Shown in pieces: positions 2,204 through 63,733 of a stretch of 64,000 nucleotides of DNA. The stretch comes from Candidatus Methylomirabilia bacterium. Lineage in GTDB: Bacteria > Methylomirabilota > Methylomirabilia > Rokubacteriales > CSP1-6. The notes under the pieces were generated by a model. It did not search any database. It worked only from the letters and a program-made list of their open reading frames with translations, and was not told where the DNA came from. How positions within the stretch are numbered: position 1 is the first letter of the stretch; each line of letters starts with the position of its first letter. Made by a program: the position numbers and the translations under genes. Location: assembly GCA_041496385.1 (NCBI GenBank), contig JBGQEL010000012.1, positions 11,409 to 75,408 of the forward strand. Reading direction: 5' to 3'.

Positions 2204-3550
2204 TTAGGCGGATGCCGCGGCGTCGGCCGCCGCGCGCGCCCGGGCCTCCTCGCGCGCGCGGGCCTCGATCCGGTCGATCCGCACCAGGGGCACGAGCAGC
2301 CAGGCCGCCGCGGTGACGGCCGCGGAGACGAGCACGAGCGGCGTGTAGCCGAGCGCGTCGTAGAGGCGCGCGCCGACGTTCTGCGAGAGCTGGGCCCCGC
2401 CGTTGTAGACCGACATGAGCAGCGCGAAGAAGGTCGCCTCCACCCGCCGCGGACACGACTTGGCCGCAAGGTCGAGGAGCGCCAGCTGGGTGATCATCCC
2501 GACGCACCCGAACGTGACGTCGATGACGAGCGCGGACGCGGCGCCGCGGTAGAGGAGGTAGCCGAGCGTTGCGACGACACCGGCGGCGATGGAGGCGTTG
2601 ATCAGCAGCTTGAGCGGCAGGCGCCGCGACAGCGGGGCGTAGATCGCCGCGCCGATCACGCCGGCGATCGCCGCGAGCGACGCGAGCAGGCCGATGAACT
2701 GCTGGCTGAACCCGAGCGCGTCCGTCTGGTAGTAGAGGAACGCCGGACCGAAGGACGGGCTGAACGTCCAGAAGAGGACGAACCCCGCGACCACCCACAT
2801 GTCCCGGTGCGCGAGCGCCTCCCGGATCGCCTGCCACGTCGCGCGGATCGCGGCGGCGTCGAACCGGGCGCGCGGCTCGCGCACGAAGAAGACCCCCATG
2901 AGCAGCGAGACGACGGGGAACGTCGCCGCGATGAGGAAGGCGGGCCGCAGGCTCCGGCTCTCCGCCAGGTAACCGCCCAGCGCGCCCACGATCACCGAGG
3001 CGACCGTGATGCAGGCCCACTGGACCGACTGGAACGCGCCGGTGAGGCCGCGCGGCCGGCCGTTCTCGACCATCAACGCGTCGGTGAGCACGTCGGTGAA
3101 GGCCAGCCCGAGCGCCATGAGCGTGAACAGGCCCACGCCGGCGACGAGGGTGAAGCTCACGGCGCCGACGAGCGGCAGCGCGACGCTGAAGCTCTCGACG
3201 GGGCCCTCCGCGATCAGCGCGCCCGAGGCGAGGACGAGGCTCGCCACCGCGGCGAGTCCCGAGGTCACGACGAAATAGCTCTGGCGCCGGCGCCCGAAGA
3301 GCGGCACGAAATCAGAGAGGAGCCCGTAGACGGGCTTGATGAGCCAGGGGATCGTGCTGATGAGGAAGAAGTCGGCGACCTGGCCCGCGCTGAGGCCGCG
3401 GTCCTTGAGGATGATCGTGATCGTCTGGTTGGGCAGATACCACATGCCCTGCGCGAAGTAGACGACGCCGAAGAGGAGGGCGAGTCGCTGCGTCTCGGGG
3501 GTCTTGAACGGGTTGAGCCGCCGGACCCACTCGGGCATGCCGGCGGCCAT
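2204..3550 (-). CDS. BT1 / folate-biopterin family MFS transporter
   Basis: ORF 2204..3847; membrane protein begins at internal ATG 3550 (MAAGMPEWVRRLNPF...), ~12 hydrophobic segments, LLFGVVYFAQG region typical of the BT1 family. The upstream 99 codons of the ORF are Arg/Ser-rich and would overlap the divergent gene. Confidence 0.6.
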   Translation of the reverse strand: MAAGMPEWVRRLNPFKTPETQRLALLFGVVYFAQGMWYLPNQTITIILKDRGLSAGQVADFFLISTIPWLIKPVYGLLSDFVPLFGRRRQSYFVVTSGLAAVASLVLASGALIAEGPVESFSVALPLVGAVSFTLVAGVGLFTLMALGLAFTDVLTDALMVENGRPRGLTGAFQSVQWACITVASVIVGALGGYLAESRSLRPAFLIAATFPVVSLLMGVFFVREPRARFDAAAIRATWQAIREALAHRDMWVVAGFVLFWTFSPSFGPAFLYYQTDALGFSQQFIGLLASLAAIAGVIGAAIYAPLSRRLPLKLLINASIAAGVVATLGYLLYRGAASALVIDVTFGCVGMITQLALLDLAAKSCPRRVEATFFALLMSVYNGGAQLSQNVGARLYDALGYTPLVLVSAAVTAAAWLLVPLVRIDRIEARAREEARARAAADAAASA

Positions 3551-26632: not shown

Positions 26633-26736
26633 CGCAGTGCGAGGTGAGGCCGGTCGTCGGCCGAGCCGAGCGGTGAAATGGTTCTGAGATCGGCGGTGCG
26701 GACGGCGCGGGCGCCGCTGCCGTGCTGGAGGAACCC

Positions 26737-42028: not shown

Positions 42029-43324
42029 ATGCACGCGCCGCGCGCTCTGCCCTCGATCCTGCTGGCCGCGCTCGCTCTCGGCTGCGCCGCCGCCACCGAG
42101 CGTCCCGCCGACGGCGTTCCGGCCTGGACCACGCGCGCGATCCCCGAGGCGCGCGGCGACGTCCGCGTGGCGCCGGATGGCACGCGCGTCGCGATCCGGT
42201 ACCGCGGCTGGACGACGCGCGACTTCGGCGCCTTCCGCACCTACGCCTACGACGACACGCGCCCCGAGCCGCGCGTCGCGCGCGCGGCGGCGCCGTCGGG
42301 CGTGACGGGCGACGCCGCGCGCGGGCGGCGCCTCTTCCTCGACCGCGCGAAGGGCCCGTGCACCGGCTGCCACCTGGTGCCGGGTGACGACGTCTGGCCC
42401 GCCGGCAACGTCGGCCCCGATCTCTCGACGCTCGGCGCTCGCGACCTCGCCGACGCGTACCTCTACCAGCAGCTCTTCGACCCGCGCGTGACCTTCCCGA
42501 AGACCTCGATGCCGCCGTGGGGCGCCGCCGGCGCCTTCACGCCCGCCGAGCTCGCGGACCTCGTCGCGTACCTCCAGACGCTCCGCGGGCCCGTGCCGCC
42601 CGAGCGCGATCGCGACCGCGACCCCGCCACGCGGGGCAAGCCCCCGGGCTTCGGCGACAACCTCGATCCCACGAACAATCCGGCCGTGCTGCTGGCCGAG
42701 GACGCCGAGGCGCGCTGGGCGTCGCCGGGCCCGGCGGGAAAAGCGTGCGCGGGCTGTCACGAGGGAGGGCCCGCGCGGGCGATGAAGGGCGTCGCCACGC
42801 GCTACCCGAGGCACGTCCCGGCGTGGCGCCGCGTGATGAGCCTCGAGGACTTCCTCGAGGTCCACGGCCCCGGGACGACCGGGCGCGCCTACCCGCTCGA
42901 GTCCGCCGAGAACCTCACGATGACGATCCTCGTCAAGATGGCGTCCAACGGCCTGCCGCAGGCACTCGACACGACCAGCCCCGAGGCGCGGGCGGCCATC
43001 CGCCGGGGCCGGGCGACCTTCGAGCGTCGCGTCGGCGAGCGCAACCACGCGTGCGCCGACTGTCACACGCCCGAGCACGGCGCCGGACGGTTTCTCGGCG
43101 GCCGTCTGCTGGCCGACGTGAGCGCGGGGCTCACGCGCCACTTCCCGACGTGGCGCACGAGCCAGGGCGAGGTCTGGGACCTGCGCAAGCGCTTCCAGTG
43201 GTGCATGACGCCGCTCGGGGCGAACATGCTCGCGGCCGACGCGATCGAGTACGCGGAGCTGGAGCTCTACCTGGCGACGTTCGACGTCGGCAAGCCGCTG
43301 AGCGTCCCCGGGATCCGCCACTGA
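42029..43324 (+). CDS. SoxXA-like trihaem cytochrome c (apparent SoxX-SoxA fusion)
   Basis: ORF 41969..43324; signal/lipobox-like start at ATG 42029 (MHAPRALPSILLAALALGCAA). Three CxxCH motifs (CTGCH, CAGCH, CADCH), consistent with a monohaem SoxX-like N-terminal part plus a dihaem SoxA-like part. Confidence 0.6.
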   Translation: MHAPRALPSILLAALALGCAAATERPADGVPAWTTRAIPEARGDVRVAPDGTRVAIRYRGWTTRDFGAFRTYAYDDTRPEPRVARAAAPSGVTGDAARGRRLFLDRAKGPCTGCHLVPGDDVWPAGNVGPDLSTLGARDLADAYLYQQLFDPRVTFPKTSMPPWGAAGAFTPAELADLVAYLQTLRGPVPPERDRDRDPATRGKPPGFGDNLDPTNNPAVLLAEDAEARWASPGPAGKACAGCHEGGPARAMKGVATRYPRHVPAWRRVMSLEDFLEVHGPGTTGRAYPLESAENLTMTILVKMASNGLPQALDTTSPEARAAIRRGRATFERRVGERNHACADCHTPEHGAGRFLGGRLLADVSAGLTRHFPTWRTSQGEVWDLRKRFQWCMTPLGANMLAADAIEYAELELYLATFDVGKPLSVPGIRH

Positions 43325-45003
43325 GCCTCACCCGGCGCGACCTGCTGACGGTCCTGGCCGTCGCGGCGGCGGCGGGGCTCGCGCCGCGCCGGCTCGAGGC
43401 GGCCGACGGTCCCGAACGGCTCCTCGAGGTCGAGCCGCTCGGCAACGTGACGCTGCTCCACCTCACGGATTCGCACGGGACGCTCCGGCCCGTGCACTAC
43501 CGCGAGCCCGACACGCTCGTCGGCGTCGGCGCCGAGCGCGGGAAGGCGCCGTTCCTGACGGGCGCCGAGTTCCTGCGCGCGTATCACCTGGCGCCCGGCT
43601 CCGCCCTCGCCCACGCCTGCACGCATCTCGACTTCCCGGCGCTGGCGGCGCGCTACGGGCGGATGGGCGGCTATGCCCACCTCGCGACGCTCGCCGGCCG
43701 CGTGCGCGCCGAGCGGGCGGGGAAGACGCTGCTCCTCGACGGCGGCGACACCTGCCAGGGCTCGGCGACCGCGCTCTGGAGCCGCGGCGAGGACATGATC
43801 CGCGCCGCGAACCAGCTCGGTGTCGAGGTGATGACGCCGCACTGGGAGTTCGTCTACGGGCTGGACCGGGTGCGCGAGCTCTTCGGCGAGGGCGAGCGGC
43901 GCGGCCTCTTCGCGGGCGACTTCGTCGCGCAGAACGTCACGCGCACGGGCTGGGGTGACCGCGTCTTCGCGCCGTACACGATCCGCGAGGCCGGCGGCGT
44001 GCGCATCGGGGTGATCGGCCAGGCGTTCCCGTACGTCCCGGTGTCGCATCCGCGACGCCTGGTGCCCGACCTGACGTTCGGCATCCAGGAGGGCCCGCTC
44101 CAGGCCCTCGTGGGGGAGGTGCGCGACGCGCGGCGCGTGGAGCTGGTCGTGCTCCTGTCGCACAACGGCATCGCCGTGGACCTGAAGCTCGCCGCCCGCG
44201 TCCAGGGGCTCGACGTCGTGCTGGGCGGCCACACCCACGACGCGCTCCCGGAGCCCATCGTCGTCGGGCGCACGCTCGTCGTGAACTCGGGCTCGCACGG
44301 CAAGTTCCTCTCGCGCCTGGACCTCGACGTGCGCCAGGGCCGCGTCGCGGGCTGGCGCTACCGGCTCCTCCCCGTGCTCGCCCGGTCCATCCCCGAGGAT
44401 CCCGCGATGGCACGGCTCGTCGCCGAGCTGCGCCGGCCGTACGAGGCGACGCTCGCCGAGCCGCTCGCGGTCTCCGAGTCGCTGCTCTACCGCCGCGGCA
44501 ACTTCAACGGCACCTTCGACGAGCTGATCCTCGACGCGCTCCTCCAGCGCTTCGACGCCGAGGTTGCCTTCTCACCGGGGTTCCGCTGGGGCCCGACGAT
44601 CGTGCCCGGGCAGACGATCACGCGCGAGGACGTCTACGCCCACACGGCGCTCACGTACCCGAACACCTGGGCGCGCGCGATGACGGGCCGCGAGATCCTG
44701 GCGCTCATGGAGGACGTCGCCGACAACCTCTACCACCCCGATCCGTACTACCGGCAGGGCGGCGACATGCTGCGCGTCGGCGGCCTCACGTACGCGATCG
44801 ACCCGCAGGCGGCGATGGGCCGGCGGATCCGCGACGTCCGCGTCGGCGGCCGGACGCTCGAGGCGGAGCGGCAATACAAGGCCGCGGGCTGGGCGAGCCT
44901 CGGCGAGGCCGCGGGGCCGCCCGCGTGGGACGTCGTTGCTGCCCACCTGCGGGCGCTCGGGCGCGTCCGGCTCGACCCGCGGCCGCGCGTCCGCGTCCTG
45001 TGA
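43321..45003 (+). CDS. soxB: thiosulfohydrolase SoxB (apparent CTG start overlapping upstream TGA)
   Basis: In-frame part of ORF 42517..45003; Tat signal LSLTRRDLLTVLAVAAAAGLAP; 5'-nucleotidase/metallophosphatase motifs (HLTDSHG, GGHTH). No ATG/GTG/TTG between GTG 43198/43201 and the Tat motif; alternative start GTG 43198. Confidence 0.8.
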   Translation: MSLTRRDLLTVLAVAAAAGLAPRRLEAADGPERLLEVEPLGNVTLLHLTDSHGTLRPVHYREPDTLVGVGAERGKAPFLTGAEFLRAYHLAPGSALAHACTHLDFPALAARYGRMGGYAHLATLAGRVRAERAGKTLLLDGGDTCQGSATALWSRGEDMIRAANQLGVEVMTPHWEFVYGLDRVRELFGEGERRGLFAGDFVAQNVTRTGWGDRVFAPYTIREAGGVRIGVIGQAFPYVPVSHPRRLVPDLTFGIQEGPLQALVGEVRDARRVELVVLLSHNGIAVDLKLAARVQGLDVVLGGHTHDALPEPIVVGRTLVVNSGSHGKFLSRLDLDVRQGRVAGWRYRLLPVLARSIPEDPAMARLVAELRRPYEATLAEPLAVSESLLYRRGNFNGTFDELILDALLQRFDAEVAFSPGFRWGPTIVPGQTITREDVYAHTALTYPNTWARAMTGREILALMEDVADNLYHPDPYYRQGGDMLRVGGLTYAIDPQAAMGRRIRDVRVGGRTLEAERQYKAAGWASLGEAAGPPAWDVVAAHLRALGRVRLDPRPRVRVL

Positions 45004-57776: not shown

Positions 57777-58355
57777 ATGGTTAAGACGGCGGCTGACGGG
57801 ATCAAGGAGATCGGGACCCCGCTCTCGGACAGCGACGTCGAGGGGCTCAAGTCCGGCGACCGCGTCCGGATCACCGGCGTCATCTACACGGCGCGCGACG
57901 CGGCCCACGGGCGCCTGCTCCCGTTGATCGAGCGGGGCGAGAAGCTCCCCATCGACGTGCGCGGGCAGATCATCTACTACACGGGGCCGTCGCCCGCGTT
58001 GCCGGGCACCATCGTCGGCTCGATCGGCCCGACCACGGCGAGCCGCATGGACAAGTTCATGCCGGCCCTCCTGAAGCTCGGGCTCAAGGGGACGATCGGC
58101 AAGGGCTACCGCTCCCAGCCGGTGAAGGACGCGCTCCGCCAGCACAAGGCCGTGTACTTCGGCGCCATCGGCGGCGCGGGCGCCGTGCTCTCGCAGTTCG
58201 TCAAGAAGGTCGCGATCGTCGCCTACGAGGACCTGGGCACCGAGGCGATCCGGCGCCTCGAGGTCGAGGACTTTCCCGCGATCGTCGTCAACGACTGCCA
58301 CGGCGGCGATCTCTACCAGGACGGCATGAAAGCGTACGCGAGGGAGAGCACATGA
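57777..58355 (+). CDS. class I fumarate hydratase, beta subunit (C-terminal domain)
   Basis: 192 aa; TtdB/FumA C-terminal-domain pattern (RITGVIYTARDAAH...GPT). Confidence 0.85.
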   Translation: MVKTAADGIKEIGTPLSDSDVEGLKSGDRVRITGVIYTARDAAHGRLLPLIERGEKLPIDVRGQIIYYTGPSPALPGTIVGSIGPTTASRMDKFMPALLKLGLKGTIGKGYRSQPVKDALRQHKAVYFGAIGGAGAVLSQFVKKVAIVAYEDLGTEAIRRLEVEDFPAIVVNDCHGGDLYQDGMKAYAREST

Positions 58356-59146
58356 TCCGTCACGCGGTGGAACAGGCGCGGCCCCCGATCGCGGCGACCC
58401 ATCTTCGTCGGGACGCCTGGTGGGCGCTGCCGGTCACGGTCGTGATCGTGCTCGGCTCGTTCATCGTCTACTCGACCTGGGCGGCCTTCCAGAACGCGCA
58501 CTACTACGTCGCTCCGTACCTCTCGCCCTTCTACTCGCCGTGCCTGTCCCAGACCTGCCAGCACCTCACGTTCGGCGCCGGCCTCCCCGACATCTCGTTC
58601 CCGATCATCGGGGTGGTCTCGCCCGCGTTCCTGATCCTCTGGGGCCCGGGGCTCTTCCGCCTGACCTGCTACTACTATCGCAAGGCGTACTACCGGTCGT
58701 TCTGGCTGGCGCCGGCGGCGTGCGCCGTGCGGGACGTCAAGCGCGGGTACACGGGCGAGACGCGCTTCCCCCTGGTCCTTCAGAGCTTCCACCGGTACGC
58801 CTGGTACGTCGCGGTGATCTTCATCGTGCTGCTCACCTGGGACGCGGTCCTGGCGTTCCGGTTCCCGGACGGCTTCGGGCTCGGCGTCGGGACGATCGTC
58901 ATGTGGATCAACGTGGTGCTGCTGGGCGGCTACACGTTCTCGTGCCACTCCTGCCGCCACGTCTGCGGCGGGCACGTGGACACCTTCTCGAAGGCGTCCT
59001 CCCGCTACGCGCTCTGGCACGTCCTCAGCCGGCTGAACGAGAAGCACCCGAACTACGCGTGGCTCTCCCTGTTCAGCGTGGGGCTCACCGATCTCTACAT
59101 CCGGCTGGTGTCCATGGGCATCATCCGCGACCTGAGGATCTTCTAG
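58352..59146 (+). CDS. sdhC: succinate dehydrogenase/fumarate reductase cytochrome b membrane anchor
   Basis: 264 aa; 5 TM segments with conserved His; ATG overlaps the fumarase-beta stop (ATGA); directly followed by sdhA. Confidence 0.7.
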   Translation: MIRHAVEQARPPIAATHLRRDAWWALPVTVVIVLGSFIVYSTWAAFQNAHYYVAPYLSPFYSPCLSQTCQHLTFGAGLPDISFPIIGVVSPAFLILWGPGLFRLTCYYYRKAYYRSFWLAPAACAVRDVKRGYTGETRFPLVLQSFHRYAWYVAVIFIVLLTWDAVLAFRFPDGFGLGVGTIVMWINVVLLGGYTFSCHSCRHVCGGHVDTFSKASSRYALWHVLSRLNEKHPNYAWLSLFSVGLTDLYIRLVSMGIIRDLRIF

Positions 59147-60946
59147 ATGGCCGCCGCCGACTACGAAACACACGAGCACGACGTCCTCGTCATCGGCGCC
59201 GGGGGCGCGGGCCTGCGCGCGGCCATCGAGGCCGCGGCGCAGGGCGTCTCGGTCGGCCTCGTCTGCAAATCGCTCCTCGGCAAGGCGCACACGGTCATGG
59301 CCGAGGGGGGCATCGCGGCCGCGCTCGGCAACGTGTGGCCCGAGGACAACTGGCAGGTGCACTTCCGCGACACGATGCGCGGCGGCAAGATGCTGAACAA
59401 CTGGCGCATGGCGCAGCTGCACGCGCAGGAGGCGCCCGAGCGCGTCCTCGAGCTGGAGCGCTGGGGCGCGCTCTTCGACCGCACCAAGGACGGCCGGATC
59501 CTCCAGCGCGATTTCGGCGGCCACCGCTACGCACGGCTCGCGCACGTCGGCGACCGGACCGGCCTCGAGATGATCCGAACGCTCCAGTACCACGGCATCC
59601 ACCAGGGCATCGACGTCTACATGGAGTGCAAGGTCGAGCGCCTCCTGAAGGACGGCAACCGCGTGTGCGGCGCGTTCGGCTACTGGCGCGAGACCGGCAA
59701 GTTCGTCGTCTTCAAGGCGAAGGCGATCGTGATCGCGACGGGTGGCATCGGCAAGGCGTGGAAGATCACGTCGAACTCCTGGGAGTATACCGGCGACGGC
59801 CAGTCGCTGGCGCTCTGGGCGGGTGCGGACCTGATCGACATGGAGTTCGTCCAGTTCCACCCGACGGGCATGATCTGGCCGCCCTCGGTGCGCGGCATCC
59901 TCGTGACCGAGGGCGTGCGCGGAGACGGCGGGACCCTCAAGAACAACAAGGGCGAGCGGTTCATGTTCAACTACATCCCCGAGTTCTTCAAGAGCGAGAC
60001 GGCCGACAACGAGGCCGAGGCCGACCGCTGGTACGAGGACAAGAATAACCGCCGCACGCCGGACCTCCTGCCGCGCGACGAGGTCGCCCGCGCGATCGAC
60101 AGCGAGGTGAAGGCCGGCCGCGGGACGCCGCACGGCGGCGTCTTCCTCGACATCTGCACGCGGCGGCCCGCCGACTACATCAAGAAGCGCCTGCCCTCCA
60201 TGTACCACCAGTTCAAGGAGCTGGCGGACGTGGACATCACCAGGGAGCCGATGGAGGTCGGGCCGACCTGCCACTACGTCATGGGCGGCGTCCGGGTCGA
60301 CGCCGACAGCGCCGCGGCGAACGTGTCCGGCCTCTTCGCGGCCGGCGAGGCGGCGGGCGGCATGCACGGCGCCAACCGCCTCGGGGGCAACTCGCTCTCC
60401 GACCTGCTCGTCTTCGGCCGGCGGGCGGGCCTGCACGCGGCGCTCTACGCGAAGAACAGCGGCGGCCAGCTCGTCGTGGACGCGGGCCAGGTCGAGGCCA
60501 TCGCGCGCGACGTGATCGCCCCGTTCAACCGCGCGCAGGGCGAGAACCCGTACGCGATCCAGGCCGACCTCCAGGCCACGATGCAAGCGCTGGTCGGCAT
60601 CATCCGGACCGAGAGCGAGATGCAGGAGGCCCTGCGGAAGATCGAGCAGCTGAAGGCTCGGGCCGAGCGCGTCGGCGTGGACGGCAACCGCCAGTACAAT
60701 CCCGGCTGGCACACCGCCCTGGATCTGAAATCGCTCCTGACGGTCGCCGAATGCTGCGCCCTGGCCGCGCTCGAGCGCCGGGAGAGCCGCGGCGGCCACA
60801 CCCGCGACGATCATCCCTACACCGACGACCAGTGGGGCAAGGTCAACATCGTGCTGCGCCAGCGCGACGGCGCCGTCCGGCTGACCCGCGAGCCGCTGCC
60901 GGAGATGCCCGCGGAGCTGAAGTCGCTCTTCCAGGAGAGAAAGTGA
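59147..60946 (+). CDS. sdhA: succinate dehydrogenase flavoprotein subunit
   Basis: 599 aa; FAD-binding VLVIGAGGAGLRAA, the covalent-FAD His region, HYVMGG. Confidence 0.9.
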   Translation: MAAADYETHEHDVLVIGAGGAGLRAAIEAAAQGVSVGLVCKSLLGKAHTVMAEGGIAAALGNVWPEDNWQVHFRDTMRGGKMLNNWRMAQLHAQEAPERVLELERWGALFDRTKDGRILQRDFGGHRYARLAHVGDRTGLEMIRTLQYHGIHQGIDVYMECKVERLLKDGNRVCGAFGYWRETGKFVVFKAKAIVIATGGIGKAWKITSNSWEYTGDGQSLALWAGADLIDMEFVQFHPTGMIWPPSVRGILVTEGVRGDGGTLKNNKGERFMFNYIPEFFKSETADNEAEADRWYEDKNNRRTPDLLPRDEVARAIDSEVKAGRGTPHGGVFLDICTRRPADYIKKRLPSMYHQFKELADVDITREPMEVGPTCHYVMGGVRVDADSAAANVSGLFAAGEAAGGMHGANRLGGNSLSDLLVFGRRAGLHAALYAKNSGGQLVVDAGQVEAIARDVIAPFNRAQGENPYAIQADLQATMQALVGIIRTESEMQEALRKIEQLKARAERVGVDGNRQYNPGWHTALDLKSLLTVAECCALAALERRESRGGHTRDDHPYTDDQWGKVNIVLRQRDGAVRLTREPLPEMPAELKSLFQERK

Positions 60947-61701
60947 TGCCGACCTTCACGATGCGCGTGTTCCGTGGAGACGCCAAGGGCGGCGACTTCA
61001 AGGAGTACCGCGTCGAGGCCGAGGAGGGCATGGTCGTCCTCGACGTGATCCACCGCCTCCAGGCCACGCAGGCCAACGACCTCGCCTGCCGCTGGAACTG
61101 CAAGGCGGGCAAGTGCGGCTCCTGCAGCGCCGAGATCAACGGCAAGCCCCGCCTGATGTGCATGACCCGGATGAACCTCTTCAAGGAGGGCGAGGCGATC
61201 TCGGTCGCGCCGATCCGCGCCTTCCCGATCATCCGCGACCTCGTGACCGACGTCTCGTACAACTACCGGAAGGCGAAGAGCGTCCCGCCGCTGCGGCTCA
61301 AGCCGCCGGAGCCCGACGGCACCTACCGGATGATGCAGGAGGACATCGATCGCATCCAGGAGTTCCACAAGTGCATCGAGTGCTTCCTCTGCCAGGACGT
61401 CTGCCACGTGATCCGTGACCACGAGGAGCTCAAGCCGGCGTTCGCCGGGCCGCGGTTCTTCATCAAGATCGCCGGGCTCGAGATGCACCCGCTCGACGCC
61501 GCGGACCGGACGGAGTTCCTGAAGGCGCAGGCCGGCGTCGGCCTCTGCAACATCACCAAGTGCTGCACCGAGGTGTGCCCCGAGCACATCCACATCACGG
61601 ACAACGGCATCATCCCGCTGAAGGAGCGGATGGCCGACCGCTTCGATCCGGTCGTCTGGCTCCTGCGGAAGTTCCGGGGCGCGAAGCAGCAGCCCGCGTG
61701 A
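60946..61701 (+). CDS. sdhB: succinate dehydrogenase iron-sulfur subunit
   Basis: From ATG 60946 (MPTFTMRVFRGD...), overlapping the sdhA stop (TGATG). 2Fe-2S, 4Fe-4S and 3Fe-4S Cys motifs (CRWNCKAGKCGSC, CIECFLCQDVC, CTEVCP). Confidence 0.9.
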   Translation: MPTFTMRVFRGDAKGGDFKEYRVEAEEGMVVLDVIHRLQATQANDLACRWNCKAGKCGSCSAEINGKPRLMCMTRMNLFKEGEAISVAPIRAFPIIRDLVTDVSYNYRKAKSVPPLRLKPPEPDGTYRMMQEDIDRIQEFHKCIECFLCQDVCHVIRDHEELKPAFAGPRFFIKIAGLEMHPLDAADRTEFLKAQAGVGLCNITKCCTEVCPEHIHITDNGIIPLKERMADRFDPVVWLLRKFRGAKQQPA

Positions 61702-62864
61702 AGATCCACGAGTTCCAGGCCAAGGCGCTGCTGCGCGAGTTCGGCGTGCCGGTGCCCGCCGGCGACGTCGCGACCTCGCCGGCCGCCGCGCGGGCCGTCG
61801 CGGCCCGGCTTGGCGGGAAGGTGGTCGTGAAGGCCCAGGTGCACGCCGGGGGCCGCGGCAAGGCGGGCGGCATCAAGCTCGCCGACGATCCAGCCGCCGC
61901 CGAGGCGGCGGCCGCGGCCATCATCGGCATGCGGCTCAAGACGCCGCAGACGCCCCCCGAGGGCATCCAGGTGCGCTCGGTGCTCGTCGAGGAAGCCTCG
62001 CTGGTCGAGCGCGAGCTCTATCTCTCGATCGCGCTCGACCGCGGCCGGAGCGCGCACGTGGTGATGGCCTCGCAGGCGGGCGGCATGGAGATCGAGGAGG
62101 TCGCCGCGCGCACCCCGGAGAAGATCCTCCGCGAGTGGGCCCACCCGGCGCTCGGCCTCGCCGACTTCCAGGCGCGGCGGCTGGCGTTCGGGCTCGGGCT
62201 CGCCGCCGAGGCGTTCAAGCAGGGCGTGAGCCTGATCCGGAGCCTCTTCGCGCTCTACCTCGCCAGGGACTGCTCCCTCGCCGAGATCAACCCGCTCGTC
62301 GTCACGCGTGACGGCCGCGTGCTGGCGCTCGACGCCAAGCTCAACTTCGACGACAGCGCGCTCTCCCGGCACAAGGAGATCGCCGCCCTGCGCGACATCC
62401 ACGAGGAGGACCCGCTCGACGTCGAGGCGTCGAAGTACGGCCTGAACTACATCAAGCTCGACGGCAACGTGGGCTGCATGGTCAACGGCGCCGGCCTCGC
62501 GATGGCGACGATGGACATCGTGAAGCTCGCGGGCGGCGAGCCGGCCAACTTCCTCGACGTGGGTGGCGGCGCCTCGCCCGAGCAGATCGAGAACGCCTTC
62601 CGCATCCTCGCGTCGGACCCGTCGGTGAAGGCCGTCTTCATCAACGTCTTCGGCGGGATCCTTCGCGTGGACCGGCTGGCCGAGGGGATCATCGGCGCGG
62701 TGAAGAAGCTCGGGCTGCGGCTGCCGGTGGTGCTGCGCGCCGAGGGCACGAACGTGGAGATCGGCAAGAAGATGCTCGCCGAGTCCGGCCTCCCGCTCGT
62801 GATGGCCGACGACATGGCCGACGGCGCGCGCAAGGTCGTGGCGCTCGCGAAGGGGGCCCCCTGA
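61698..62864 (+). CDS. sucC: succinyl-CoA synthetase beta subunit
   Basis: From GTG 61698 ([20 protein letters not shown]...), overlapping the sdhB stop (GTGA). ATP-grasp and CoA-ligase domains. Confidence 0.9.
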
Positions 62865-63733
62865 GCGTCCTCGTCTCGCGGGCCACGCGCGTCGTCGTCC
62901 AGGGCATCACGGGACGCGAGGGGGCGTTTCACGCCGCCCGCTGCAAGGAGTACGGCACCACGGTCGTGGGCGGCGTGACGCCGGGGAAGGGCGGCACGAC
63001 CCACGAGGGATTCCCCGTGTGGAACACCGTGGCCGACGCGGTGGCGAGCGAGCGGGCGAACTGCGCGCTCATCTTCGTCCCGCCGGCCGCCGCGGCCGAC
63101 GCGATCATGGAAGCCGCGGCCGCCGGCGTGCCCCTCGTGGTCTGCATCACGGAGGGGATTCCCGTCGCGGACATGGTGCGCACGAAGCACTATCTCGCGA
63201 CGCAGCCGACGCGGCTGATCGGGCCGAACTGCCCGGGCGTGATCACGCCGGATGAGGCGAAGGTCGGCATCATGCCCGGCCACATCCACAAGCGCGGGCC
63301 CGTCGGCGTCGTCTCGCGCAGCGGCACGCTGACCTACGAGGTCGTGGGCCAGCTCACCGGCCGTGGCATCGGCCAGTCCTCGTGCGTGGGGATCGGGGGC
63401 GACCCCGTGAACGGCACCAGCTTCGTGAACGTGCTCGGGCTCTTCGCCGACGATCCCGAGACGCGGGCGATCATGATGATCGGCGAGATCGGCGGCACCG
63501 CCGAGGAGGAAGCCGCGGTGTTCATCCGCAACCACGTCAAGAAACCGGTGATCGCGTTCATCTGCGGCCAGACGGCGCCGCCCGGCCGCCGCATGGGTCA
63601 CGCGGGCGCCATCATCGCGGGGGGGAAGGGGACGGCCGCCGAGAAGATGGCGGCGCTGGAGGCCGCCGGGGCCACCCTCGTCCGCAGCCCGGCCGACATG
63701 GGCGCGACCGTCGCCGCGGTCTTGCAGAGGTGA
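62861..63733 (+). CDS. sucD: succinyl-CoA synthetase alpha subunit (apparent CTG initiation codon overlapping sucC stop)
   Basis: Conserved N-terminus [45 protein letters not shown] aligns residue-for-residue with [21 protein letters not shown]...[10 protein letters not shown] of SucD. There is an in-frame TGA at 62801 and no ATG/GTG/TTG between it and CTG 62861; the track ORF began only at internal M 62966. Confidence 0.85.

What the first reader, a model, noticed from the sequence alone, without database searches (positions are those of the whole stretch)
62801..62870. sucD lacks any canonical start: CTG initiation codon embedded in a CTGA overlap with the sucC stop
The SucD N-terminus is among the most conserved in the protein family, and here it aligns from the CTG at 62861 ([18 protein letters not shown]... 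vs [18 protein letters not shown]...). An in-frame TGA lies 20 codons upstream (62801) with no ATG/GTG/TTG in between. The next in-frame candidate (ATC) would delete the CoA-binding Rossmann start. CTG overlaps the sucC TGA as CTGA, identical to the soxXA/soxB junction. Two independent cases argue for genuine CUG (re)initiation in coupled genes in this organism, rather than a sequencing error.
Basis: seen in the sequence. Interest (0 to 1): 0.65.

Follow-up and report, generated by a model that had tools for sequence, protein, structure and literature searches.

The report
CTG start codon on coupled sucD
In this uncultured soil bacterium (Rokubacteria), the genes for a core energy enzyme subunit (SucD) and a sulfur-oxidation enzyme (SoxB) each begin with the rare start codon CTG, overlapping the stop codon of the gene before; the CTG is real rather than a sequencing error, and it is an unusual but already known way to start a protein.

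Summary
The core observation holds. CTG at 62861-63 is in the sucD frame, overlaps the sucC stop (CTGA), and is the only start that keeps the conserved SucD N-terminus. There is no in-frame ATG/GTG/TTG from 62312 to 62965.

One detail is wrong. The TGA at 62800-02 is out of frame, and the real upstream in-frame stop is at 62309.

The CTG is not an error:
- Five other assemblies of the same species, from at least five samples, carry it.
- Of 160 sucD loci from other lineages, 157 have ATG/GTG/TTG at exactly this codon. The closest relatives have GTGA.
- Among the CTG-bearing copies, 11 of 12 variable sucD codons are synonymous, so the gene is still under selection.

soxB (43321) is a true second case. 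Relatives have TTGA where this species has CTGA. Both changes are silent in the upstream gene.

Best explanation (inferred, not shown): fMet-tRNA initiation at CUG by ribosomes that have just terminated on the overlapping stop. At sucD a strong Shine-Dalgarno sequence (AAGGGGG) would help.

Both components are known: CTG is a listed rare bacterial start, and 4-nt overlap coupling is well described. I rate it a new member of a known kind, of moderate interest.

A side observation in other Rokubacteria hints at wider start-codon laxity at such overlaps. There, genes after ndk begin on CTG, CTA or GTA overlapping the ndk stop.

The parts
61698..62864 (+). sucC (succinyl-CoA synthetase beta). Its GTG start overlaps the sdhB stop (GTGA); its stop is TGA at 62862-64.
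   Evidence: Pfam ATP-grasp_2 covers residues 2-202 and Ligase_CoA covers 261-381.
62850..62856 (+). Shine-Dalgarno-like AAGGGGG inside the end of sucC, 4 nt upstream of the CTG.
   Evidence: Duplex with an assumed canonical anti-SD (ACCUCCUUU) gives -11.3 kcal/mol; only 3.7% of random windows reach -9 or lower. It is stronger than in relatives L083 (-8.5) and L084 (-4.8).
62852..62861 (+). GGGGGCCCCC run. The five Cs (62857-61) end in the C of CTG. It is the only conceivable -1 slip site for P-site tRNA-Pro.
   Evidence: Read directly from the sequence. Relatives lack the C5 run. The downstream RNA fold is not unusual, z = -0.38.
62861..62863 (+). CTG, the proposed sucD initiation codon. It overlaps the sucC stop by 4 nt (CTGA).
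   Evidence: It aligns to the start codon of 157 of 160 homologous loci and to Met1 of E. coli SucD. It is present in six assemblies.
62861..63733 (+). sucD (succinyl-CoA synthetase alpha), 290 codons plus stop.
   Evidence: NF004230 scores 442 bits (cut-off 336), matching residues 2-289 to profile positions 2-289. Pfam CoA_binding covers 7-99. It is 1.9e-111 to E. coli SucD, 1jkj.
62966..62968 (+). First canonical in-frame codon (GTG). Gene callers use it and produce a truncated 255-aa SucD.
   Evidence: Starting here deletes 35 residues, including QGITG and a third of the CoA-binding domain.
62800..62802 (+). It is out of frame.
   Evidence: 62801-03 reads GAT in the sucD frame.
62309..62311 (+). 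The true upstream in-frame stop of the sucD frame.
42029..43324 (+). soxXA-like cytochrome gene, with stop TGA at 43322-24.
   Evidence: Pfam Cytochrome_CBB3 covers residues 96-182 and SoxA-TsdA_cyt-c covers 226-310. Gene order is soxY-soxZ-soxA-soxB.
43321..43323 (+). CTG, the proposed soxB initiation codon. It overlaps the soxXA stop (CTGA).
   Evidence: Relatives L164, L165 and L166 have TTG at the same codon (caTTGAgc). L163 (99.8% nt identity) also has CTG.
43321..45003 (+). soxB (thiosulfohydrolase) with an N-terminal Tat signal (LSLTRRDLLTVLAVAAAAGLAP).
   Evidence: TIGR04486 scores 777 bits (cut-off 550), matching residues 4-559 to profile positions 1-553. Full-length relatives are 560-567 aa.
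43198..43203 (+). Two in-frame GTGs 40-41 codons upstream of the soxB CTG. They are an alternative start that would overlap soxXA by more than 120 nt.
   Evidence: The coding signal starts at 43321, not here. The JGI gene call does not use these codons.
43447..43449 (+). First downstream canonical codon (GTG) in soxB. Gene callers use it; the resulting 518-aa product lacks the Tat signal.

Best explanation
sucD is a functional gene whose start codon changed from GTG to CTG in one species-level lineage of Rokubacteria.

sucC and sucD overlap by four bases (CTGA), so only the first base of the start codon can change without damaging sucC. G to C there is silent in sucC (CCG to CCC, both Pro).

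Proposed mechanism (inferred):
1. A ribosome finishing SucC terminates at UGA.
2. Its small subunit stays on the mRNA, held by the strong SD-like AAGGGGG 4 nt upstream.
3. It re-initiates one base back, with fMet-tRNA on CUG. This is a first-position mismatch, as with GUG and UUG.
4. The product is full-length SucD starting with Met.

The same thing happened independently at soxXA/soxB, where TTG became CTG (silent CAT to CAC in the upstream gene). soxB has no SD, so it would depend wholly on coupling.

Shown here: the CTG is real, it sits at the ancestral start position, no canonical alternative exists, and sucD is under purifying selection.

Inferred: that CUG is the codon actually used, and that coupling or the SD makes it efficient enough.
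For: 1. No in-frame ATG/GTG/TTG from 62312 to 62965. The CTG overlaps the TGA.
2. The CTG corresponds to Met1 of E. coli SucD. The mature chain of 1jkj starts at query residue 2, and the match to NF004230 begins at residue 2 / profile position 2, which places the CTG codon at profile position 1. CoA_binding begins at residue 7.
3. Of 160 sucD loci from other lineages, the aligned codon is ATG in 108, TTG in 28 and GTG in 21, with one GTG shifted by a codon. CTG occurs only in this species. The closest relatives read GTGA or ATGA.
4. Six assemblies carry the CTG while differing elsewhere: the window, L081, L082, L168, L169 and L170. The junction has the same length as in L083, so it is a substitution.
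5. Across these copies sucD has 12 variable codons. Eleven are synonymous and one is A220V, against an expected synonymous-site fraction of 0.26.
6. The SD duplex at sucD is -11.3 kcal/mol; only 3.7% of random windows reach -9 or lower.
7. soxB repeats the pattern. It has CTGA where 83%-identical relatives have TTGA, and the TIGR04486 match starts at residue 4 of the CTG-started protein.
8. The window has 10-13 ATGA/GTGA junctions, including the two directly upstream in the same gene chain, sdhB and sucC.
9. Literature: CUG initiates at about 1-2% of AUG in E. coli and is annotated as a rare start (bioRxiv 10.1101/063800). Four-nt overlaps support termination-reinitiation and are enriched in subunits of heteromeric complexes (PMC6728339, PMC10666635).
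Against: - There are no expression data: no N-terminal peptide and no ribosome profiling.
- CUG is a poor start where it has been measured. It gives 0.1-3% of AUG in E. coli and is not enriched in mycobacteria (PMC4633059). No CUG starts occur among M. tuberculosis NUGA overlaps. SucD needs to be made 1:1 with SucC.
- CTG is absent at this codon in all other lineages sampled, so it is normally selected against. It could be a recent, slightly deleterious allele.
- All CTG-bearing copies are very close (at least 98.7% nt identity), so the time over which selection has been tested is short.
- Within soxB, the only two differences between the window and L163 are non-synonymous, so there is no evidence of selection there.
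- The SD spacer is short, at 4 nt.
Confidence: 0.75

Rival explanations
1. SucC-SucD fusion by -1 ribosomal frameshift. With UGA waiting in the A site, P-site tRNA-Pro on CCC (62859-61) slips back one base onto CCC (62858-60). The ribosome then reads CTG as Leu and continues into sucD, making one fused polypeptide.
For: The G-to-C change created a run of five Cs ending at the stop, which allows perfect re-pairing in the -1 frame, and that frame is the sucD frame. A slow stop codon in the A site promotes P-site slippage (established knowledge, for example prfB). A frameshifted fusion was seen alongside reinitiation at an AUGA overlap in M. tuberculosis (PMC11260477). From my own knowledge, beta-alpha fusions of this enzyme family exist in ATP-citrate lyase.
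Against: The soxXA/soxB junction (CGC CAC TGA) and the ndk junctions with CTGA (CGC TGA) have no slippery site, and SoxB needs a free N-terminal Tat signal, so a common explanation cannot be frameshifting. No stimulatory structure lies downstream: z = -0.38 against shuffles. No relative has a fused or slippery arrangement. Unstimulated P-site slips are usually inefficient.
Confidence: 0.06
2. Start-loss allele. The CTG is a recent, mildly or strongly deleterious mutation. Full-length SucD is barely made, or only a truncated form from GTG 62966, and the function is dispensable or supplied by another locus.
For: CTG is unique to one shallow lineage. CUG is a weak initiator where measured. Gene callers give a 255-aa product.
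Against: The allele is fixed in six assemblies from several samples. Eleven of 12 variable sucD codons are synonymous. The 35 N-terminal codons are unchanged in all copies. A protein starting at residue 36 lacks the GxTGxxG loop and a third of the CoA-binding domain. A second gene in the same genome shows the same change, and the SD here is stronger than in relatives, which looks like compensation.
Confidence: 0.08
3. Restart without regard to codon identity. Ribosomes that terminate at the overlapping stop resume translation on the stop-overlapping codon, so CTG is not acting as a near-cognate start as such.
For: In 10 of 14 other Rokubacteria loci where ndk lies directly upstream, the bPH_5 gene sits in the same -1 geometry with no canonical start. 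The stop-overlapping codon is CTG in 4, CTA in 3 and GTA in 3. The peptide motif just downstream is conserved with synonymous variation. Loss of ribosome recycling in E. coli gives restarts at non-canonical codons (PMC2268962).
Against: At sucD the first base is never C in 157 other lineages. That would not be expected if codon identity were irrelevant. No such mechanism is established in wild-type bacteria. The ndk cases are in other genomes and their true starts are unknown.
Confidence: 0.08
4. Sequencing or assembly artefact: a true GTGA/ATGA misread, or an indel in the G5C5 run.
For: GGGGGCCCCC is a palindromic homopolymer pair, a context prone to errors.
Against: The junction is identical in six assemblies from NCBI and JGI that differ at other sites. 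Its length equals that of relative L083. The soxB junction has no homopolymer and is confirmed in L163.
Confidence: 0.01

Closest known systems
Four-nucleotide stop/start overlaps (ATGA/GTGA) with translational coupling by termination-reinitiation (Huber et al. 2019, PMC6728339; 2023, PMC10666635; review PMC12548453)
   Same: The genes are co-directional, with the stop and start sharing TGA. The downstream frame is -1 relative to the upstream frame. The SD lies inside the upstream gene. The pair encodes two subunits of a heteromeric enzyme (SucCD). The neighbouring junctions in the same gene chain are ordinary GTGA overlaps.
   Different: The overlapping start codon is CTG, not ATG, GTG or TTG. 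Described sets list ATGA/GTGA, and in M. tuberculosis NUGA overlaps no CUG starts were found.
Rare CTG (CUG) initiation codons in bacteria (NCBI genetic code table 11 alternative start; Hecht et al., bioRxiv 10.1101/063800)
   Same: It is a near-cognate with a first-position mismatch to the initiator anticodon. The product is expected to start with fMet. It is annotated at low frequency in curated genomes.
   Different: Here it sits on a central-metabolism gene, at a coupled junction. It is demonstrably derived from GTG or TTG in relatives, and it occurs twice in about 60 genes.
Regulatory non-canonical starts proofread by IF3: infC AUU in E. coli, sigR GTC in Streptomyces (PMC5472188), the recJ GUA mutant (Haggerty and Lovett 1997, cited in PMC2268962)
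   Same: A weak, non-standard start codon is tolerated on a functional gene, and its efficiency is expected to depend on IF3 stringency and context.
   Different: Nothing here suggests a regulatory role. The codon is not conserved beyond one species, whereas infC AUU is widely conserved.
Stop-codon-dependent P-site frameshifting (prfB +1 at CUU UGA C)
   Same: A slippery P-site codon lies immediately before UGA, with an SD-like element just upstream.
   Different: The direction would be -1, no conservation was found, no stimulator was found, and the same CTGA pattern occurs at junctions with no slippery codon.

Membership tests
Succinyl-CoA synthetase alpha subunit (SucD) | Full-length match to the curated equivalog model above its cut-off | tested here: met
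   NF004230 scores 442.4 bits against a cut-off of 336, matching residues 2-289 to profile positions 2-289/291. TIGR01019 scores 434.9 bits against 353.2.
Succinyl-CoA synthetase alpha subunit (SucD) | N-terminal CoA-binding Rossmann domain with the GxTGxxG loop | tested here: met
   PF02629 covers residues 7-99, profile positions 2-97/97. QGITGREG is present. The domain is complete only if translation starts at the CTG.
Succinyl-CoA synthetase alpha subunit (SucD) | Phosphohistidine loop (GHAGA) | tested here: met
   [15 protein letters not shown] aligns with E. coli SucD, 1jkj.
Succinyl-CoA synthetase alpha subunit (SucD) | Adjacent sucC partner gene | tested here: met
   The upstream gene has ATP-grasp_2 and Ligase_CoA domains.
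4-nt overlap termination-reinitiation gene pair | Co-directional genes whose stop and start codons overlap by 4 nt | tested here: met
   CTGA at 62861-64 and at 43321-24.
4-nt overlap termination-reinitiation gene pair | Downstream start codon is ATG or GTG (or TTG) | tested here: not met
   The codon is CTG at both junctions. Relatives have GTG/ATG (sucD) and TTG (soxB).
4-nt overlap termination-reinitiation gene pair | [quoted passage not shown] | not testable with these tools
   This needs reporter constructs with premature stops in sucC.
4-nt overlap termination-reinitiation gene pair | SD motif inside the upstream gene (common but not obligatory) | tested here: met
   sucD: AAGGGGG, -11.3 kcal/mol. 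soxB: none, -4.1 against a background mean of -3.75. The anti-SD sequence was assumed to be canonical.
Bacterial gene with a CTG initiation codon | Homologue N-termini align exactly at the CTG, and no canonical start preserves the conserved N-terminus | tested here: met
Bacterial gene with a CTG initiation codon | The codon is reproducible in independent sequence data | tested here: met
   Six assemblies for sucD and two for soxB.
Bacterial gene with a CTG initiation codon | The gene stays under purifying selection while carrying CTG | tested here: met
   sucD: 11 synonymous against 1 non-synonymous variable codon. soxB: too few differences to tell, 0 synonymous and 2 non-synonymous.
Bacterial gene with a CTG initiation codon | Direct evidence of initiation (N-terminal peptide with Met, or a start-site ribosome footprint) | not testable with these tools
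   The organism is uncultured and no proteomic or Ribo-seq data are available here.
Programmed -1 ribosomal frameshift fusion | Slippery site allowing tRNA re-pairing in the -1 frame | tested here: inconclusive
   CCCCC before the TGA permits a P-site tRNA-Pro slip at sucC/sucD. No such site exists at soxXA/soxB (CGC CAC TGA).
Programmed -1 ribosomal frameshift fusion | Downstream stimulatory RNA structure | tested here: not met
   The fold of 62865-62934 gives z = -0.38 against shuffles.
Programmed -1 ribosomal frameshift fusion | Conservation of the shift site in relatives | tested here: not met
   Relatives have separate genes with GTGA/ATGA junctions and no C5 run.
Thiosulfohydrolase SoxB | Equivalog model match and an N-terminal twin-arginine signal | tested here: met
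   TIGR04486 scores 777 bits against a cut-off of 550, matching from residue 4. TRRDLL followed by a hydrophobic stretch is read from the sequence.

The most novel reading that the evidence does not exclude
In Rokubacteria, ribosomes that terminate at a stop codon may restart on the codon overlapping that stop (-1 frame) with greatly relaxed start-codon requirements.

CTG would be only the mildest symptom, seen at sucD and soxB here and at bPH_5 genes after ndk in L085, L088, L094 and L107. Other bPH_5 genes begin on CTA or GTA overlapping a TAG stop, with no canonical start before a conserved, clearly translated N-terminal motif.

If true, this would be a lineage-wide, start-codon-relaxed form of termination-reinitiation. 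Gene callers miss it systematically: they truncate SucD to 255 aa and SoxB to 518 aa.
Probability: 0.12. Interest if true: 0.8.

Novelty: new member of a known kind. Interest (0 to 1): 0.4.

Why it matters
Practical consequence: automatic annotation truncates both proteins. SucD loses 35 residues of its CoA-binding domain and SoxB loses its Tat export signal. These truncated forms are already in public databases for this lineage. Metabolic reconstructions and localisation predictions for such MAGs are therefore slightly wrong.

Biological interest: this is a clean natural experiment. A 4-nt overlap leaves only the first base of the start codon free to change, and the one non-canonical outcome (CTG) has become fixed twice in one genome. 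It is present in all six recovered copies of sucD, a central-metabolism gene that remains under purifying selection.

That gives a testable case for whether coupled reinitiation, possibly with a strengthened SD, tolerates CUG far better than the 1-2% measured for free-standing starts in E. coli.

The ndk/bPH_5 observation in related genomes suggests the tolerance may be broader in this phylum.

Tried and rejected
Rejected: it is out of frame.
- **Homopolymer indel or sequencing error.** Rejected: six concordant assemblies, and the same junction length as L083.
- **Other CTG-bearing sucD lineages.** None found among 160 genome and metagenome loci. The 90% protein cluster of the truncated SucD holds only this species.
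- **Further non-canonical starts in the window.** My codon-usage caller flagged three more genes with late first canonical starts (ORFs opening at 26677, 3883 on the minus strand and 50804 on the minus strand). Their Pfam domains begin far downstream, so nothing indicates a missing N-terminus.
- **A special tRNA in the window.** ARAGORN finds no tRNA gene there.
- **Frameshift-stimulating or otherwise unusual RNA structure at either junction.** Fold energies match shuffled controls.
- **Exact look-up of soxB from GTG 43447.** It found nothing, because the window protein differs by two residues from the database entry P0001.
- **Literature on CUGA or CUG starts at overlaps, or on Rokubacteria start codons.** Nothing relevant found.
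- **Apparent 97.8% identity of L082.** This overstates divergence. Seventy-one of its 96 mismatches lie in about 360 nt of sdhA at the contig end. The sucC-ndk region differs at 16 of 2303 positions.
Full report
**What is in the sequence**

The window is 71.6% GC. The sucC ORF ends with TGA at 62862-64. One base earlier, CTG at 62861-63 opens the sucD frame, and the junction reads gaagggggcccc-CTGA-gcgtc.

Translation from the CTG gives [24 protein letters not shown].... In this frame there is no ATG, GTG or TTG between the upstream stop and GTG at 62966. The only near-cognate codons close by are this CTG and ATC at 62906.

The TGA lies at 62800-02 in another frame. The true in-frame stop is TGA at 62309, 184 codons upstream. 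The core observation therefore stands, and is somewhat stronger than stated.

**Identity of the genes and position of the N-terminus**

The CTG-started product is a complete SucD:
- NF004230 scores 442 bits against a cut-off of 336, with residues 2-289 matching profile positions 2-289.
- Pfam CoA_binding covers residues 7-99.
- The mature E. coli SucD chain (1jkj, starting [10 protein letters not shown]) aligns from residue 2.

The CTG is therefore the counterpart of the E. coli initiator Met. Starting at GTG 62966 would remove 35 residues, including the QGITG loop.

The upstream gene is SucC (ATP-grasp_2 and Ligase_CoA). Its own start is a GTGA overlap with the preceding sdhB-like gene, which in turn overlaps the gene before it by GTGA. 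sucD is thus the last link of a chain of tightly coupled genes.

**Is the CTG real?**

The truncated 255-aa SucD that gene callers produce is on record in two NCBI MAGs (GCA_041491865.1, GCA_041484465.1). Near-identical variants occur in three JGI metagenome samples. All five extra copies read GGGGGCCCC-CTG-AGC, while differing from the window at 2 to 32 other positions in the overlapping stretch.

The junction has the same length as in the closest relative, L083 (gcgaaggagcccagGTGAgc). The difference is therefore a G-to-C substitution, not an indel in the G5C5 run. A sequencing or assembly error is excluded.

**What relatives have at this codon**

I fetched 160 sucD loci from other lineages: 80 from species-representative genomes and 80 from metagenomes. 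The codon aligned to 62861 is ATG in 108, TTG in 28 and GTG in 21. One more has GTG one codon later, and two run off the locus.

The nearest relatives are Rokubacteria/Methylomirabilota at 80-90% amino-acid identity. They mostly have GTG or ATG overlapping the sucC stop as GTGA or ATGA. CTG is confined to the window's species.

The overlap explains why the non-canonical codon is CTG. Bases 2 and 3 of the start codon are the T and G of the sucC stop, so only base 1 can change without harming sucC. C is the one non-canonical option, and in sucC it changes CCG to CCC, both Pro.

**Is sucD still functional?**

Across the six CTG-bearing copies sucD has 12 variable codons. Eleven are synonymous and one is A220V. 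Only 26% of sites are synonymous. Six of six synonymous has a naive probability of 3e-4 under neutrality, and 11 of 12 is less likely still. The 35 N-terminal codons are invariant.

The divergence is shallow (at least 98.7% identity), so this shows ongoing constraint in the population, not long-term maintenance.

**The second case**

soxB behaves the same way. CTG at 43321 overlaps the TGA of the soxXA-like gene, and the product starts LSLTRRDLLTVLAVAAAAGLAP, a twin-arginine signal. The SoxB equivalog model TIGR04486 matches from residue 4 (777 bits).

Relatives at about 83% identity are 560-562 aa. They start with TTG at the same codon, overlapping the stop as TTGA (L164, L165, L166). One relative has GTG after a short gap. 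A 99.8%-identical JGI contig (L163) also has CTGA, and there the gene was called from the downstream GTG as a 518-aa protein without its signal peptide.

The T-to-C change is again silent upstream (CAT to CAC, both His).

In-frame GTGs at 43198/43201 could in principle give a 40-residue extension. That would overlap soxXA by more than 120 nt, it has the look of out-of-frame sequence, and it lies upstream of where the coding signal starts.

**How unusual within the window**

A simple codon-usage gene caller trained on the window gave about 60 genes. Only sucD and soxB have a coding onset with no canonical start nearby. The window has 10-13 ATGA/GTGA junctions and these two CTGA junctions.

Three other genes with late first starts showed no sign of missing N-terminal domains.

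**Mechanism**

The most economical reading is ordinary initiator-tRNA initiation on CUG, made workable by context.

At sucD the terminating ribosome is already on the site. An SD-like AAGGGGG lies 4 nt upstream and pairs with a canonical anti-SD at -11.3 kcal/mol. That is well beyond most random windows and stronger than in relatives with GTG, which may be compensatory.

soxB has no SD (-4.1 kcal/mol), like its TTG-bearing relatives, so it would rely on coupling alone.

Published measurements put CUG at about 1-2% of AUG in E. coli. CUG starts are described as rare or absent in mycobacteria, including at NUGA overlaps. Reinitiation in E. coli still needs formylated initiator tRNA and is proofread by IF3.

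None of this tells us how well CUG works in a 4-nt overlap in this phylum. That step is inference.

**Rivals**

- A -1 slip of tRNA-Pro on the C5 run at the UGA would fuse SucC to SucD. It is sterically possible at this one junction. However, there is no stimulatory structure, no conservation, and no slippery site at the soxB junction or the other CTGA junctions.
- A dying gene is unlikely given the synonymous-only variation and the parallel change in soxB.
- Artefact is excluded.

**Side observation bearing on the novel reading**

Sixteen of the fetched Rokubacteria sucD loci carry a homologue of a small membrane protein with a bacterial PH domain (bPH_5). In 14 of them it lies directly after ndk; no ndk was found upstream in the other two.

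In 10 of the 14 loci where ndk is directly upstream, its frame is ndk -1. No canonical start lies between the ndk stop and a conserved N-terminal motif (F.A.LG..[EQ]R) that shows synonymous codon variation. The codon overlapping the ndk stop is CTG in 4, CTA in 3 and GTA in 3.

Three family members with a canonical start (L005, L095, L106) read GTG AGC GAC..., and L085 and L088 read CTG AGC... at that same position.

The CTG cases add a third gene family to the pattern. The CTA and GTA cases have no known explanation. This is outside the window and only partly followed up.

**Verdict**

Each component is known: CTG is a listed alternative start in the bacterial code, and 4-nt overlap coupling is well described. 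What is new is a documented, comparatively dated pair of GTG/TTG-to-CTG switches at coupled junctions in a Rokubacteria species, with annotation consequences. I rate it a new member of a known kind, of moderate interest.

Noticed in passing
L001, L002, L085, L086, L087, L088, L094, L098, L107, L110 (about 3180-3400 in most loci; about 4280-4330 in L001), immediately after ndk: A bPH_5 membrane-protein gene follows ndk in the -1 frame. It has no ATG/GTG/TTG before its conserved, synonymously varying N-terminal motif F.A.LG..[EQ]R. The codon overlapping the ndk stop is CTG(A) in 4 loci, CTA(G) in 3 and GTA(G) in 3. In L086 there is no canonical start anywhere upstream in the open frame. Three members with a canonical start (L005, L095, L106) read GTG AGC at the position where L085 and L088 read CTG AGC.
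   Followed up: partly
window 62850-62856 compared with L083, L084, L002: The SD-like sequence in front of the CTG (AAGGGGG, -11.3 kcal/mol) is stronger than in the GTG-bearing relatives L083 (-8.5), L002 (-10.3) and L084 (-4.8). It may compensate for the weak start codon.
   Followed up: partly
window 57777-63733: An unbroken chain of tight junctions runs through the sdh-suc cluster: ATGA at 58352, TAG|ATG at 59146/59147, GTGA at 60943, GTGA at 61698 and CTGA at 62861. This suggests serial translational coupling across six genes.
   Followed up: no
L082 1-360 (window 59642-60000, sdhA): Seventy-one of the 96 mismatches between L082 and the window, including 22 amino-acid changes, are packed into the first ~360 nt of that contig. 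The rest is more than 99% identical. This could be a recombinant sdhA segment or a chimeric contig end.
   Followed up: no
window 42029-43324: The gene upstream of soxB combines a cbb3-type/class I cytochrome c domain (residues 96-182) with a SoxA/TsdA domain (226-310). It is therefore a fused SoxX-SoxA-like protein in a soxY-soxZ-soxXA-soxB cluster.
   Followed up: no
L107 about 3390 compared with L110 about 3356: Within the bPH_5 family, L110 has ATG at ..RQR-M-IAG.. where L107, L095 and L113 have CTG (RQR-L-IAG). This is probably just an internal Leu, but it is another ATG/CTG alternation near a possible start.
   Followed up: no
L081 2166-2860: In the window's own species, about 700 nt after ndk carry no called gene, and no bPH_5 homologue was detected there by tblastn.
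   Followed up: no
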